A stretch of 64,000 nt of DNA, from sequence record MT782071.1; one strand, 5' to 3'. The translations under genes and the position numbers were made by a program. The notes below the pieces were generated by a model that was not told where the DNA came from, ran no database searches, and saw only the letters and a program-made list of their open reading frames with translations. Source of the stretch: Escherichia phage JN02. Of this stretch, positions 26,467 to 30,277 are shown piece after piece (positions within the stretch are counted from its first letter, which is position 1; every line of letters begins with the position of its first letter).

Positions 26467-27048
26467 TTATAACAACCCTGTCAAATCATTCCAATGCTTC
26501 CGGCATAATGACACGTATCTATCGGTATCACCAATTTCAATTTGACTGCCATCTGTAATTGGAAGTCCGTCTTCCGTGACTCTAGCTACCATTGTGGCCT
26601 TTTTACCACAATGACAGACACCTTTAAGTTCAACAAGCTTATCGGCAATAGCCATTAATGCTTGAGAACCTTCAAATAGATTACCTTTAAAATCTGTTCG
26701 TAGTCCATATGCCATTACCGGCACATTGTATACGTCAACAATACGACTAAGTTGATACACCTTTTCAGTAGTTAAGAACTGAGCTTCGTCAACAAATACA
26801 CAATGAATATCCTTTTGTGCCGCAGCCCATTTATAGAATTCAAAGATATCCATGTCTTTTGTAATTATATTGGCGTCCTGACGAATACCAATACGAGAGA
26901 CTATTTCACCTTTTGAATCGCGAGTATCAATAGCCGGTTTAAGAACTAATACACCCATGCCACGTTCTTTATAGTTATGTGCGGCAGTAAGTAATGAAGC
27001 AGACTTACCAGCGTTCATAGCGGCATATGTAAAAATTAAACTAGCCAT
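26467..27048 (-). CDS. tk: Thymidine kinase
   Basis: 193 aa; P-loop AAMNAGKSASLL; C-terminal zinc-binding cysteines; same length as T4 Tk. Confidence 0.93.
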   Translation of the reverse strand: MASLIFTYAAMNAGKSASLLTAAHNYKERGMGVLVLKPAIDTRDSKGEIVSRIGIRQDANIITKDMDIFEFYKWAAAQKDIHCVFVDEAQFLTTEKVYQLSRIVDVYNVPVMAYGLRTDFKGNLFEGSQALMAIADKLVELKGVCHCGKKATMVARVTEDGLPITDGSQIEIGDTDRYVSLCRKHWNDLTGLL

Positions 27049-27057
27049 AAGAGTCCC

Positions 27058-27240
27058 TTATAGTGAATTCACGTAGTCAATGAGTTCTTGTTCTTTCCTG
27101 TCAAATGATTCCATCAATGCTTGATATTCTTCATCTGTTAAAGGAGCATATTCATCGTACGCATTGGTGGCTGCTTGCTCATCCAATAGGTCATGAATAA
27201 GTTCAAACAGTTTAGCTTTCTCTTCTTTAGTTAATTTCAT
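27058..27240 (-). CDS. Hypothetical protein (60 aa, acidic)
   Basis: Track ORF. Confidence 0.55.
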   Translation of the reverse strand: MKLTKEEKAKLFELIHDLLDEQAATNAYDEYAPLTDEEYQALMESFDRKEQELIDYVNSL

Positions 27241-27464
27241 TTAGGTTCACCTTCTTTAACGAAATCTGGGTAAGGGTAAAATCCTGAGTAAAACCCTTCA
27301 CCTTTATGATTGCTACAACCTTTGTTCGAACAGTAACACCAATAATCAAAATCACAAGCCATTTCGTCATTGCATAAAGCAAAAACTACAGGCCATTCGC
27401 ATTTTTCGCATTTAGCACCTGTAAGAATTTTTGTTTGACTCATAGCCATGTCACCTTTAAGCAA
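27237..27464 (-). CDS. Cys-rich small protein (putative zinc-binding)
   Basis: 75 aa with CEKCEW...C...C.C...C..H pattern. Confidence 0.55.
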   Translation of the reverse strand: MLKGDMAMSQTKILTGAKCEKCEWPVVFALCNDEMACDFDYWCYCSNKGCSNHKGEGFYSGFYPYPDFVKEGEPK

Positions 27465-27652
27465 TATTCTTCTACATGTTGTTTACGGCCTTTCTTATCA
27501 ATAAAGGTATATTCAACGAATGTTCCGATGTAGTCTTTATCTACATCATGTGGACTATTAATTGGACATTTGGTACGACAAATGCGTTCCCATTGACGAA
27601 TAATTACTGCCTTATTCTTTGGGTCATATGGATGTGGATAATGTATATTCAT
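27440..27652 (-). CDS. Hypothetical protein
   Basis: Track ORF 27440..27667; internal ATG (MNIHYPHPYD...) abuts the upstream gene stop. Confidence 0.5.
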   Translation of the reverse strand: MNIHYPHPYDPKNKAVIIRQWERICRTKCPINSPHDVDKDYIGTFVEYTFIDKKGRKQHVEEYCLKVTWL

Positions 27653-28146
27653 AATAATGGTTCCCAATCAACAATCACAATTTCTAGTTTAGTGGAATAC
27701 GTATCTAAAATCTCTTCGATGACATCCCAGTTTCCACCACCAATACCTGCACCAATTCTTGGCATATAAATTACAGGCTTTGTTATCTTATTCTTTCCGA
27801 ATTCATTTAATTCTATTATACAATTCATTAAAGCAGAGTACTCAAAATTAGGTCCCGGCTCAAACTGCGTATAAAGATTAAAGCAATAAGCTTTATGGGT
27901 CTTAAAATATTTTTCATAAACCGAATAAGTCCCGAGTTTAGACTCGTCTCCGAATTCGGTTTGAAGTTTATCAGCTTCCAGAATTTTTGGATAAGCCTTT
28001 GCTAATTGTCCTGCCACACCGGCGCCCATTGTATGAAAACAATTACACCCATGAGCGATATTATTACCTTTAGAAAACAGGGCGACAATATCGCCCTTGA
28101 TATAGTTTTTAATCACTTGCTGCAAGTCCTCTATTATAAGAGTCAA
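27649..28146 (-). CDS. Macro-domain (ADP-ribose binding/processing) protein
   Basis: 165 aa; GNNIAHGCNCFHTMGAGVAGQL and PRIGAGIGGGNW resemble the two Gly-rich ADP-ribose-binding loops of macro domains. Confidence 0.65.
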   Translation of the reverse strand: MTLIIEDLQQVIKNYIKGDIVALFSKGNNIAHGCNCFHTMGAGVAGQLAKAYPKILEADKLQTEFGDESKLGTYSVYEKYFKTHKAYCFNLYTQFEPGPNFEYSALMNCIIELNEFGKNKITKPVIYMPRIGAGIGGGNWDVIEEILDTYSTKLEIVIVDWEPLL

Positions 28147-28456
28147 CTAGACGGTCCACCATAGAATTGCATGCTGCCTTATCTTTAGGTTCCGCCACCG
28201 AGCATTCTAATATTTGCCATTTTTTATAGTATCTTTTAATTAAGGTAGACGCCTTGAACCTACTAGACGCCCCATCTTTTTCTCCGTCTTTATACGCATA
28301 TAACAATTTTTGTGAAAAATCTACTTTACACTCTTGACTTTGACCACAATAATCAGACGCCGTTCTGTTTGTATACTCCGTTATATCAGTGTATGTAGTA
28401 TTAGCAAGAGCGTTAAATGAAACCAAGCCAACTATTAAAGCCAACATTTTGGTCAT
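28109..28456 (-). CDS. Secreted Cys-containing protein (115 aa)
   Basis: Signal-peptide-like N-terminus MTKMLALIVGLVSFNALA; four Cys; occupies the vs position of T4 but identity not established. Confidence 0.5.
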   Translation of the reverse strand: MTKMLALIVGLVSFNALANTTYTDITEYTNRTASDYCGQSQECKVDFSQKLLYAYKDGEKDGASSRFKASTLIKRYYKKWQILECSVAEPKDKAACNSMVDRLVDSYNRGLAASD

Positions 28457-28995
28457 TCTTTTATTTCCAGTAGTTTATTTGATTTAAGGTAATTGGCCTT
28501 TTCTAGGACTTCAGAAGCATATTTACTTCCAGCACTTGTCTTCCATCCCGCATTATATGAGGATATAGCTTTTCTTATATCCCCATTATGTATATTTAAC
28601 CAATAAGAAAATTCGATATAAGCCCATCTAGCTGAATTAGACCGCTTAGATAGCATTTTCTTAATTTGGGCATCAGTCATATTATAACCAAGCTGGTTAA
28701 TTCGTGCCCTCATTGTTGGTAGATAATTTTGGAACATTCCATACGCATGGTGACCTTTCTTATCTTTAAGATTAATACCGGCAGATGATTCCTGCCATAG
28801 TATTGCGGCCATTATGTACCCAAGTCCTTTCTTATGCATATTTTCATGCGTTTTAAATTTTCCGTCCTTAGAAAACTGTTCCCCAAACTGATAAGCATAA
28901 TTCAAGTTATCGAGTTGGACATTACTAAAAGTATGCTCGGAGCTATGTGCTGATAATGAAAGAGCAAATAGACCAGCGAGTAGTGCTTTTCTCAT
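28453..28995 (-). CDS. Lytic transglycosylase-like (SLT-domain) protein with signal peptide
   Basis: 180 aa; signal-like MRKALLAGLFALSLSAHS; ILWQESSAG...GMFQ resembles the SLT catalytic E-S...G[LM][MF]Q motif. Confidence 0.6.
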   Translation of the reverse strand: MRKALLAGLFALSLSAHSSEHTFSNVQLDNLNYAYQFGEQFSKDGKFKTHENMHKKGLGYIMAAILWQESSAGINLKDKKGHHAYGMFQNYLPTMRARINQLGYNMTDAQIKKMLSKRSNSARWAYIEFSYWLNIHNGDIRKAISSYNAGWKTSAGSKYASEVLEKANYLKSNKLLEIKE

Positions 28996-29003
28996 GTTTA
29001 CCT

Positions 29004-29462
29004 CTAGATTTTAATCACTGCTTTAGAAGCTTTTCCTGGTAGTCGTTTACTGTTAATAATAGCCATTCTGCATTGAAGAGTCTTCATTTTGAATGCTGGA
29101 TTTTCGCGACAGACTGTGAGTCCTAACCAAAGATTTCCATCAGTTATTTCTAAACGGCCTGGGCGATATTCGACGCCTTCGACAAAATCTTCATCAACAT
29201 CTGGACGTGCCGGCATTGATAAAAATTCTGCAACTTCTTTAACATGATTTTTTACTTTACGAAATAATTCAAAAACGTAGTTCTCATCTATTTCTCTCTG
29301 GATGGCACGATCTAAGAGATGTTGAGAATACTTGATATGAAAGCCTGGTAGTCCAAGAGACTTTGCAGCATCTTTTATACCGGCATTTATTTTGCGGAAC
29401 TCCGTTTCAAAGATTCGACGGAGTTTATTACGGCGGATAAAAACGTCTGAATTGATAGTCAT
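29004..29462 (-). CDS. regB: Endoribonuclease RegB
   Basis: 152 aa; MTINSDVFIRRNKLRR...CRMAIINSKRLPGKASKAVIK, about 80 percent identical to T4 RegB as recalled. Confidence 0.9.
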   Translation of the reverse strand: MTINSDVFIRRNKLRRIFETEFRKINAGIKDAAKSLGLPGFHIKYSQHLLDRAIQREIDENYVFELFRKVKNHVKEVAEFLSMPARPDVDEDFVEGVEYRPGRLEITDGNLWLGLTVCRENPAFKMKTLQCRMAIINSKRLPGKASKAVIKI

Positions 29463-29518: not shown

Positions 29519-29818
29519 CTACTCTTTGAAAGGAATTAACTTTTTAACTGCTTTAGATACTTCGTCACGAACCTGGTGGAAGTTCTTGAGCTGTTCAAGG
29601 CGTTGTTCGTAATACGCAATCTCATCTTCTTCAAGACAATCGTCAGCGTCTTCTTTCAGATATGCCTTGTACTCATTAAAGAGGGCCCATAGGCGATTCT
29701 CAAAGTCATCAAGGCTTTGAATTTTCTTGTGCTTCGGAACAAGGCCAAAAGGATTGCTTTCAGTTATGCGTCGAGATGCTTCATAATGAGTTCCAAAGCC
29801 TGATAGGATTTGAGCCAT
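29519..29818 (-). CDS. Hypothetical protein (vs.3 position)
   Basis: Track ORF 29519..29860; internal ATG at 29818 overlaps the upstream stop. Confidence 0.5.
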
Positions 29819-30063
29819 TAGTATTTTTCCTCTGGTTGAAATACCGCACGACAAGCCCACATACTAGCTTCCTTTAGGCGTTCTTTAGCACAGTTCAATT
29901 GGGACAAAGCCATCAGAGCTTCAGGAGTATTTGCTGATAATGCTTCTTCTGCCAGGGCGTCTAGAATAAGTCCTAAACGAACTTCAGCATCTTTAATAGC
30001 GTTCACTTTACCGATTTTATCATCGGTATGCGGCTTGTAGCCTTTGATGTCTTCAATCGACAT
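29818..30063 (-). CDS. Putative Acb2-like (Vs.4-position) small helical protein
   Basis: Track ORF 29818..30231; internal ATG at 30063 gives 81 aa ([31 protein letters not shown]...). Assignment is by position relative to regB and the GrcA-like gene, where T4 carries vs.4; sequence not verified. Confidence 0.4.
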
Positions 30064-30277
30064 AAGGAATTTCCTCATCGGTGGCAAGGTCATATTCGAC
30101 CAATTGGATAGGCTCATTAATACCATATCCGCGTACAGTGATATCAGTTGACGGATATTTTCCAGTAATATCACCCGTTCTAAATGCTTCAATGAATGAT
30201 TGCTCGCCTGAGCAACTAAACCAGGCGGCAAAACATTTTAAAACATCTTCAGACCCTTCTATAATCAATTTAGCCAT
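30053..30277 (-). CDS. Hypothetical protein (vs.5 position)
   Basis: 74-aa track ORF. Confidence 0.55.
   Translation of the reverse strand: MAKLIIEGSEDVLKCFAAWFSCSGEQSFIEAFRTGDITGKYPSTDITVRGYGINEPIQLVEYDLATDEEIPYVD

What the first reader, a model, noticed from the sequence alone, without database searches (positions are those of the whole stretch)
27649..28146. Macro-domain protein between tk and regB
Two Gly-rich loops (GCNCFHTMGAGVAG and IGAGIGGGNW) resemble the ADP-ribose-binding loops of macro domains. T4-type phages ADP-ribosylate host proteins (Alt, ModA, ModB) and hosts use ADP-ribosylation and NAD-derived signals in defence, so a phage macro domain could reverse host modifications or degrade ADP-ribose-based signals.
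Basis: partly seen in the sequence, partly recalled or inferred. Interest (0 to 1): 0.5.

Follow-up and report, generated by a model that had tools for sequence, protein, structure and literature searches.

The report
T4 tk.4/adfM macrodomain, anti-DarTG2
This gene really does encode a macrodomain (an ADP-ribose-removing enzyme fold), but it is the ordinary ortholog of phage T4 gene tk.4, which a 2025 preprint already showed protects T4 from the bacterial DarTG2 defence system that ADP-ribosylates phage DNA.

Summary

The window is a Tequatrovirus, and the protein is 84% identical to T4 Tk.4 in the same tk-tk.1-tk.2-tk.3-tk.4-vs-vs.1-regB order. GenBank relatives already carry the names "macro domain protein" or "phosphatase". 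A 2025 preprint (HIDEN-SEQ) showed that deleting T4 tk.4 makes T4 sensitive to DarTG2, and renamed the gene adfM.

One nuance appears in neither adfM paper I read. This family lacks the catalytic Lys of DarG/TARG1 (K80/K84). At that position it has a Gln that is invariant in 58 mostly phage-derived and 80 bacterial homologs, as in Streptomyces SCO6735. SCO6735 needs its Gln85 to cleave thymidine-linked ADP-ribose on DNA. The PhiKZ protein also called AdfM is instead a true Lys-type, DarG-like macrodomain.

De-ADP-ribosylation of DNA by the T4-type protein is inferred, not yet shown. Interest is low.

The parts
27649..28116 (-). tk.4 / adfM coding sequence: 155 aa plus a TGA stop at 27649-27651. 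It is a single stand-alone macrodomain.
28114..28131 (-). Translation start region: GAGGA Shine-Dalgarno (28127-28131), a 10-nt spacer, then GTG start (28114-28116) overlapping the vs stop codon (TAA 28109-28111).
   Evidence: Sequence. T4 has ATG at the same position with an in-frame TAG just before it. T4 annotation. All family N-termini align here.
28117..28146 (-). They are probably not translated as part of this protein and lie inside the 3' end of vs.
28012..28053 (-). Loop 1, H22-G-C-N25-C-F-H-T29-M-G-A-G33-V-A35. It contains the H and N that align with SCO6735 H24/N27, with DarG N22 (PhiKZ AdfM N23), and with Poa1p H23/S30.
   Evidence: Translation. H22, C26, G33 and A35 are invariant and N25 nearly so in 58 homologs. 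Alignments.
27865..27879 (-). N80-L-Y82-T83-Q84 strand end. Q84 sits at the position of the catalytic Lys of TARG1 (K84), Taq DarG (K80) and PhiKZ AdfM (K78), and of the essential Gln85 of SCO6735.
   Evidence: Profile alignment to TARG1 and BT1257. MAFFT alignment A2. Q84 is invariant in 58 mostly phage-derived homologs and in 80/80 bacterial homologs whose selection patterns did not include it. SCO6735 mutagenesis in PMC9411070.
27727..27762 (-). Loop 2, P119-R-I-G-A-G-I-G-G-G-N-W130, the Gly-rich second loop. The position of TARG1 D125 is Gly/Ala here.
   Evidence: Translation. P119, I121, G122 and G124 invariant. Alignment to TARG1 'PRIGCGLDRLQW'.
26467..29462 (-). Gene context: tk, tk.1, tk.2, tk.3, tk.4, vs, vs.1, regB, all on the minus strand with overlapping or abutting stop/start codons. 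The order is the same as in T4.
   Evidence: ORFs. PHROG assignments. T4 annotation. The region is 99.6% identical to Tequatrovirus records.

Best explanation
The gene is the ortholog of phage T4 tk.4 (renamed adfM, anti-DarT factor macrodomain). It encodes a 155-aa stand-alone macrodomain of the ALC1-like class, which also contains TARG1, DarG, SCO6735/BT1257 and Poa1p.

The most likely mechanism runs as follows. When the phage infects a cell carrying the DarTG2 toxin-antitoxin defence, the DarT2 toxin uses NAD+ to attach ADP-ribose to thymidines in single-stranded phage DNA, which blocks replication. The phage macrodomain binds the ADP-ribose through its two Gly-rich loops and hydrolyses the ribose-thymine bond. 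This restores the DNA, so the protein acts as an orphan antitoxin.

The catalytic style is probably that of SCO6735, not that of DarG. There is no Lys nucleophile. Instead an invariant Gln (Q84), with the H22/N25 loop, would position the substrate and a water molecule.

What is shown: the fold, the orthology, the conserved residues, and, for the T4 ortholog only, the genetic requirement against DarTG2. What is inferred: that the protection is enzymatic, that thymidine-ADP-ribose on DNA is the substrate, and the Gln-based chemistry.
For: - **Orthology.** The protein is 130/155 identical to T4 Tk.4, with the same gene order and the same start position.
- **Function of the ortholog.** tk.4 was the single significant hit of a T4 transposon library on DarTG2 cells, and a clean knockout sensitised T4 to DarTG2 (10.1101/2025.11.20.689424). 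T-even phages were already known to resist DarTG2 independently of AdfA and AdfN (PMC11257639).
- **Mechanism by analogy.** SCO6735 has Gln85 at the Lys position, removes DarT-made thymidine-ADPr, rescues E. coli from DarT, and is dead as Q85A or Q85E (PMC9411070). The window protein has Q84 there. This Gln is invariant in 58 + 80 homologs.
- **Consistency check.** T5, reported as DarTG2-sensitive, has no Tk.4-like ORF in its whole genome. Its best E-value is 0.15, against 8e-64 for the T4 positive control.
Against: - No biochemistry exists for any T4-type Tk.4 protein. The preprint itself only says enzymatic removal 'seems likely'.
- The genetic result is for T4, not for this phage, and comes from a preprint.
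- The two Lys residues that SCO6735 uses for DNA and diphosphate contacts (K34, K89) are not conserved here; they align with A32 and roughly G88.
- SCO6735 also inhibits DarT by direct binding, so protection need not be purely catalytic.
- Sequence distances to BT1257, TARG1, SCO6735, DarG and Poa1p are all similar, with profile E-values from 4e-17 to 8e-12. Substrate specificity therefore cannot be read from the nearest neighbour.
Confidence: 0.8

Rival explanations
1. It protects against DarTG2 mainly without catalysis, by binding and inhibiting the DarT2 toxin as a stoichiometric inhibitor. Any hydrolase activity would be secondary or absent.
For: Catalytically dead SCO6735 (Q85A), DarG (K80A) and TARG1 (K84A) all inhibit DarT in vitro, and SCO6735 does so most strongly (PMC9411070). 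The T4 data are purely genetic.
Against: The protein is a bare 155-aa macrodomain. It lacks the C-terminal DarT-binding domain of DarG: it matches only positions 4-146 of the 338-position NCBIfam DarG model and 4-145 of the 329-position PADLOC DarG model. The strict invariance of active-site-position residues H22, N25, N80 and Q84 across phage and bacterial homologs that have no DarT nearby argues for a conserved enzymatic activity, not a toxin-specific interface.
Confidence: 0.08
2. It is an ADP-ribose 1''-phosphate phosphatase (Poa1p-like) or an O-acetyl-ADP-ribose deacetylase acting on small soluble ADP-ribose derivatives. This is what the database labels 'phosphatase' and 'O-acetyl-ADP-ribose deacetylase' imply.
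Against: Poa1p has Ser, not the invariant Gln, at position 84, and Phe152 where this family has Gly/Ala. No source of ADP-ribose-1''-phosphate is known in T4 infection (general knowledge: T4 RNA repair by Pnk/Rnl1 leaves no 2'-phosphate). This activity would not explain the DarTG2-specific phenotype of the T4 knockout. The labels are inherited annotations, not tests.
Confidence: 0.05
3. It has a broader or different macromolecular substrate: Asp/Glu-linked protein ADP-ribosylation, ADP-ribosylated RNA, or ADP-ribose-derived immune signals such as those of Thoeris. Anti-DarTG2 would then be only one of its roles.
For: SCO6735 and TARG1 act on both protein and DNA substrates. Stand-alone bacterial homologs are common, with 356 in the species-representative genomes, and the 80 best loci examined show no DarT2 within about 6 kb, so the ancestral role is not DarT-specific. 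Macrodomains are found in 41% of myoviruses (PMC9503650).
Against: In the T4 screen, tk.4 was depleted specifically in the DarTG2 condition. No data link it to signals or proteins. Arg-linked marks made by T4 Alt/ModA/ModB are not known macrodomain substrates (general knowledge).
Confidence: 0.07

Closest known systems
Phage T4 Tk.4 = AdfM (anti-DarT factor Macrodomain), bioRxiv 10.1101/2025.11.20.689424
   Same: It is 84% identical over all 155 residues, with the same start position, the same neighbours (tk.3 downstream, vs upstream) and all family-invariant residues. It is an ortholog in a phage of the same genus.
   Different: There are only 25 substitutions, none at invariant positions. 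The start codon is GTG instead of ATG. Loop 2 reads GGGNW instead of GKGNW. The phenotype was tested in T4, not in this phage.
Streptomyces coelicolor SCO6735 / Bacteroides BT1257 (Gln-type ALC1-like macrodomains; PDB 5E3B, 2FG1/2AFC)
   Different: Identity is only about 23-31%. This family has T-Q where they have G-Q. It lacks their 5-6-residue insertion after the Gln, and SCO6735 K34 and K89. It has an invariant D49 that they lack.
DarG antitoxin macrodomain (T. aquaticus 5M3E, M. tuberculosis 5M3I) and PhiKZ gp104 'AdfM' (PMC13309987)
   Different: DarG and PhiKZ AdfM carry the FPTK(x)xWR motif with the catalytic Lys (K80/K78), whereas this family has YTQ. The window protein scores 33 bits on the PADLOC DarG model, against 133 bits for PhiKZ AdfM. 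It scores 31.9 bits against the NCBIfam DarG cut-off of 250. PhiKZ AdfM hits only DarG structures in the PDB, at 1e-18 to 1e-25. The window protein has no C-terminal DarT-binding domain. Two different macro lineages therefore carry the name AdfM.
Human TARG1/OARD1 (PDB 4J5R/4J5S)
   Same: It is the top Foldseek hit (E 3.7e-10) with a profile E-value of 5e-17. It shares the same loops and the same His.
   Different: The TARG1 catalytic dyad K84/D125 corresponds to Q84 and Gly/Ala here.
Yeast Poa1p, ADP-ribose 1''-phosphate phosphatase (PDB 6LFQ-6LFU)
   Different: It has Ser at the Q84 position and Phe152 where this family has Gly. It acts on a small-molecule substrate.

Membership tests
Macro domain superfamily (Pfam PF01661) | Sequence match to the family profile above the curated gathering score | tested here: met
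   28.1 bits against a cut-off of 22, E=2.2e-6, covering profile positions 2-117 of 118.
Macro domain superfamily (Pfam PF01661) | Three-layer alpha/beta/alpha macro fold | tested here: met
Macro domain superfamily (Pfam PF01661) | Two conserved Gly-rich loops that line the ADP-ribose cleft | tested here: met
   MGAG (residues 30-33) and GAGIGGG (122-128) align with the corresponding loops of TARG1, BT1257, SCO6735 and DarG. G33, G122 and G124 are invariant. ADP-ribose binding itself is not testable here.
T4 Tk.4 / AdfM orthologous group | High identity over the full length to T4 Tk.4 | tested here: met
   130/155 identical with no gaps. tblastn E=2e-86.
T4 Tk.4 / AdfM orthologous group | Conserved position between tk.3 and vs in the tk-regB cluster | tested here: met
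T4 Tk.4 / AdfM orthologous group | Required for growth on DarTG2-expressing hosts | not testable with these tools
   Shown for T4 only, in preprint 10.1101/2025.11.20.689424. It needs a knockout of this phage.
DarG-type (Lys-type) DNA ADP-ribosyl glycohydrolase | Catalytic Lys (Taq DarG K80, TARG1 K84) at the end of the central strand | tested here: not met
   Gln84 occupies that column in the profile alignment to TARG1 and in the MAFFT alignment with Taq and Mtb DarG and PhiKZ AdfM.
DarG-type (Lys-type) DNA ADP-ribosyl glycohydrolase | Score above the curated cut-off of the DarG equivalog model | tested here: not met
   NF048014 gives 31.9 bits against a cut-off of 250, with only the macro part (positions 4-146 of 338) matched.
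DarG-type (Lys-type) DNA ADP-ribosyl glycohydrolase | C-terminal DarT-binding domain and an adjacent darT gene | tested here: not met
   The protein is 155 aa with a macrodomain only. The neighbours are tk.3 and vs.
SCO6735/BT1257-type (Gln-type) ALC1-like macrodomain | Gln at the position of the TARG1/DarG Lys (essential Gln85 in SCO6735) | tested here: met
   Q84 aligns with the Gln of BT1257 and SCO6735. It is invariant in 58 + 80 homologs.
SCO6735/BT1257-type (Gln-type) ALC1-like macrodomain | H-x-C-N loop (SCO6735 H24, V25, N27) | tested here: met
   H22-G-C-N25.
SCO6735/BT1257-type (Gln-type) ALC1-like macrodomain | Extra mobile loop and basic residues K34/K89 proposed to clamp DNA | tested here: not met
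   The 5-6-residue insertion after the Gln is absent, and K34 and K89 align with A32 and roughly G88.
SCO6735/BT1257-type (Gln-type) ALC1-like macrodomain | Hydrolysis of thymidine-linked ADP-ribose on ssDNA | not testable with these tools
   It needs an enzyme assay.
Poa1p-like ADP-ribose 1''-phosphate phosphatase | Residues mutated by the depositors (H23, S30, F152) | tested here: inconclusive
   H23 aligns with H22 and S30 with T29 (conservative), but F152 aligns with Gly (entry titles).

The most novel reading that the evidence does not exclude
T4-type AdfM (Tk.4) and PhiKZ-type AdfM are two independent recruitments of different macrodomain lineages against the same defence. The PhiKZ type is a captured DarG-like Lys enzyme. 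The T4 type descends from widespread stand-alone bacterial Gln-type macrodomains, and it removes thymidine-linked ADP-ribose by the lysine-free, water- and substrate-assisted chemistry proposed for SCO6735. The family-specific invariant D49 may play a catalytic part. If so, Q84 (and perhaps D49), not a Lys, would be the residue to mutate, and the family might have a wider substrate range (protein or RNA ADP-ribose) than DarG.
Probability: 0.55. Interest if true: 0.4.

Novelty: already known. Interest (0 to 1): 0.22.

Why it matters
ADP-ribosylation of phage DNA by DarT toxins is a widespread bacterial defence. Knowing which phage genes erase it helps explain host range, which matters for therapeutic T4-like phages. 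For this window there is nothing new to claim. The gene is already annotated as a macrodomain in close relatives, and its T4 ortholog already has a name and a phenotype.

The only added value is mechanistic. The T4-type protein does not have the DarG catalytic lysine. It looks like the Gln-type SCO6735 enzymes, so the published comparison with M. tuberculosis DarG should not be used to pick catalytic mutants. In addition, the name AdfM currently covers two distinct macrodomain lineages.

Tried and rejected
1. **TTG 28146 as the start.** Rejected in favour of GTG 28116, on the T4 ATG with an in-frame stop before it, the Shine-Dalgarno spacing and the family N-termini.
2. **Membership of the DarG family proper.** Rejected: no catalytic Lys, far below the equivalog cut-off, no DarT-binding domain.
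3. **A darT gene next to bacterial relatives.** tblastn with P. aeruginosa DarT2 against 80 loci (up to 6 kb of flank on each side) gave only noise, with E>=1. A Pfam scan of 129 flanking ORFs gave no recurrent partner and no DarT family among the 25 most frequent families. Limits: a single DarT2 query, naive ORF calling, and only immediate neighbours scanned.
4. **A dedicated promoter or terminator for the gene.** The promoter-like count is not above shuffled expectation, 13 against 15.5 +/- 3.6. The one terminator-like hairpin near the 5' end lies inside the coding sequence and is conserved in T4, where it encodes the conserved KGDIVAL. I did not interpret it.
5. **Separating T4-type and PhiKZ-type AdfM by PHROG.** Both fall in phrog_335, a broad remote-homology cluster, so this library cannot separate them.
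6. **Locating the invariant D49 in the 3D model.** The model coordinates are not exposed to the script environment, so its distance to the active site could not be measured.
7. **Further functional reports on Tk.4.** Literature searches found only the HIDEN-SEQ preprint.

Full report
**The observation**

The window carries an ORF at 27649..28146 on the minus strand. PHROG profiles identify thymidine kinase at 26467-27048 and the RegB endoribonuclease at 29004-29462. Between them lie the small tk.1, tk.2 and tk.3 ORFs, the valyl-tRNA synthetase modifier vs, and vs.1.

One correction concerns the start. The TTG at 28146 is only the longest mechanical start. T4 has an ATG where this window has GTG 28116, and in T4 an in-frame TAG lies directly upstream. 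A GAGGA sequence sits 10 nt upstream of the GTG. The GTG overlaps the vs stop codon. All 58 aligned homologs begin at this position. The protein is therefore 155 aa, and residue numbers below use that form.

**What it is**

Pfam Macro (PF01661) matches end to end, at 28.1 bits against a gathering score of 22. PHROG 335 matches at 8e-67. Sequence searches of the PDB find BT1257 (6e-11), yeast Poa1p (1.5e-8), SCO6735, TARG1 and DarG macrodomains. With a 58-sequence family profile these strengthen to between 4e-17 and 8e-12.

**Whose gene it is**

The 3.1-kb region is 99-99.6% identical to several Tequatrovirus genomes. The protein is 130/155 identical to T4 Tk.4, in the same position between tk.3 and vs. 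In close relatives the gene is already annotated as "macro domain protein", "macro domain-containing protein" or "phosphatase". tblastn finds relatives in 2,799 phage records. A published survey reports macrodomains in 41% of myoviruses (PMC9503650).

**What is already known about function**

A 2025 preprint used a transposon library of T4 (HIDEN-SEQ, 10.1101/2025.11.20.689424). It found tk.4 as the single significant gene depleted on cells expressing DarTG2. It confirmed that a clean knockout becomes DarTG2-sensitive, and it renamed the gene adfM. This filled a gap noted earlier: T-even phages resist DarTG2 independently of AdfA and AdfN (PMC11257639).

The preprint offers no biochemistry. 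It states only that enzymatic removal of ADP-ribose from DNA "seems likely", on the basis of structural similarity to M. tuberculosis DarG. But the finding is not new.

**How it most likely works, and a nuance**

DarG and TARG1 depend on a Lys at the end of the central strand (Taq DarG K80, TARG1 K84). TARG1 also uses D125 (PMC9411070; PMC13309987). Two alignments put Gln84 in that column here: the profile alignment to TARG1, and a MAFFT alignment with Taq and Mtb DarG, PhiKZ AdfM, BT1257 and SCO6735. The motif reads N-L-Y-T-Q against F-P-T-K or L-I-T-K. The TARG1 D125 column is Gly/Ala.

BT1257 and SCO6735 also have Gln at that position. For SCO6735 this Gln85 is essential: Q85A and Q85E are inactive. 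The enzyme efficiently removes DarT-made thymidine-ADP-ribose and rescues E. coli from DarT. A lysine-free mechanism has been proposed in which Gln positions the substrate and a backbone-held water starts the reaction.

Q84 is invariant in the 58 mostly phage-derived homologs. It is also invariant in 80 of 80 bacterial homologs, which were retrieved with peptide patterns that did not include it. H22 and N25 align with SCO6735 H24 and N27, and N25 aligns with DarG N22 and PhiKZ N23.

I therefore think the T4-type protein is a Gln-type enzyme in the SCO6735 manner, not a DarG-type one. It is not simply an SCO6735 ortholog, however. Identity is about 23-31%. The insertion after the Gln and the DNA-contacting K34 and K89 are missing. 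The family also has its own invariant Asp49, which SCO6735 and BT1257 lack.

**Two different proteins named AdfM**

PhiKZ gp104, named AdfM in a 2026 paper and shown to remove DarT2 marks in vitro (PMC13309987), carries the FPTK motif. It matches only DarG structures in the PDB, at 1e-18 to 1e-25. It scores 133 bits on the PADLOC DarG model, whereas the window protein scores 33 bits. The window protein scores 31.9 bits against the NCBIfam DarG cut-off of 250. hhalign still relates the two families, at 96% probability, and both fall in the very broad PHROG 335. They are nevertheless distinct lineages within one class.

**Comparative checks**

Bacterial relatives are common, with 356 in the species-representative genome set. 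The 80 best loci were examined further. In these the gene is usually a stand-alone ORF of 146-170 aa. No DarT2 homolog lies within 6 kb by tblastn. A Pfam scan of 129 flanking ORFs shows no recurrent partner. NADAR (4 ORFs), NAPRT/NAMPT (2) and NUDIX (2) appear at low frequency.

These relatives therefore look like orphan ADP-ribose erasers, like SCO6735, and not like antitoxins of DarTG operons.

As a consistency check, phage T5 is DarTG2-sensitive in the preprint. It has no Tk.4-like ORF anywhere in its 121,750-bp genome: the best E-value is 0.15, against 8e-64 for the T4 control.

**Rivals**

- **Protection by binding DarT2 instead of hydrolysis.** This is possible, because dead SCO6735, DarG and TARG1 all inhibit DarT. 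The protein lacks DarG's toxin-binding domain, though, and its active-site residues are invariant even in bacteria without DarT.
- **A Poa1p-like phosphatase or O-acetyl-ADP-ribose deacetylase role**, as the database labels imply. This is not excluded by residues (H22 and T29 align with Poa1p H23 and S30), but it would not explain the DarTG2-specific phenotype, and Poa1p lacks the Gln.
- **A broader substrate range (protein or RNA ADP-ribose, or signals).** This remains open.
- **Reversal of the phage's own Alt/Mod marks.** This is unlikely because those marks are Arg-linked (general knowledge).

**Verdict**

It is the tk.4/adfM ortholog of a T4-like phage, already labelled as a macrodomain in public records and with a published anti-DarTG2 phenotype in T4. 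What remains untested is the biochemistry. My analysis predicts that Q84, not a lysine, is the key residue.

Noticed in passing
window 29818-30081 (-): The ORF three genes upstream of regB is the Vs.4 homolog. It matches PDB 7UQ2 'Vs.4' at E=1.2e-29. From my own knowledge, T4 Vs.4 is the anti-CBASS cyclic-nucleotide sponge Acb2. If so, two counter-defence genes (adfM and vs.4) lie within about 2 kb of each other in this early-gene cluster.
   Followed up: partly
literature: 10.1101/2025.11.20.689424 and PMC13309987: Two independent reports use the name AdfM for macrodomains of different lineages. T4 Tk.4 is Gln-type and scores 33 bits on the PADLOC DarG model. PhiKZ gp104 is Lys-type with an FPTK motif and scores 133 bits. 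Neither paper mentions the Lys/Gln difference in the text I read.
   Followed up: yes
window 27970-27972 (-), residue D49: Asp49 is invariant in all 58 mostly phage-derived and 80 bacterial homologs of the Tk.4 family. It aligns with Tyr in BT1257 and SCO6735 and has no counterpart among the known catalytic residues. Poa1p has an Asp at the aligned position.
   Followed up: partly
loci L002-L081 (bacterial relatives): Among the 129 ORFs flanking bacterial Tk.4-like macrodomain genes, 4 are NADAR-domain proteins, 2 are NAPRT/NAMPT and 2 are NUDIX. A macrodomain plus NADAR is the same pair of DNA-ADP-ribose erasers that T4 carries as AdfM and AdfN. The frequency is low, and I did not check which loci they are or how the genes are oriented.
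   Followed up: no
window 28079-28097 (-): A strong 8-bp hairpin (AGGGCGAT-ATT-GTCGCCCT) followed by a T-rich run lies 20-40 nt inside the tk.4 coding sequence. It is identical in T4, with predicted folding energies of -13.8 and -14.8 kcal/mol for 61-nt segments. It overlaps the conserved KGDIVAL codons, so it may be a by-product of coding.
   Followed up: partly
window 27440-27667 (-) and 27237-27464 (-): The ORF finder's starts for tk.3 and tk.2 are also too long. PHROG profiles align from residue 6 (tk.3) and residue 8 (tk.2). The likely tk.3 ATG (27650-27652) overlaps the tk.4 TGA stop as ATGA. Stops and starts overlap or abut along the whole tk-regB cluster.
   Followed up: partly
window 28453-28995 (-), vs.1: The 180-aa Vs.1 homolog has an N-terminal signal-like hydrophobic stretch and a 'YGMFQ' motif that recalls lytic transglycosylases. 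PHROG 600 lists it as of unknown function.
   Followed up: no
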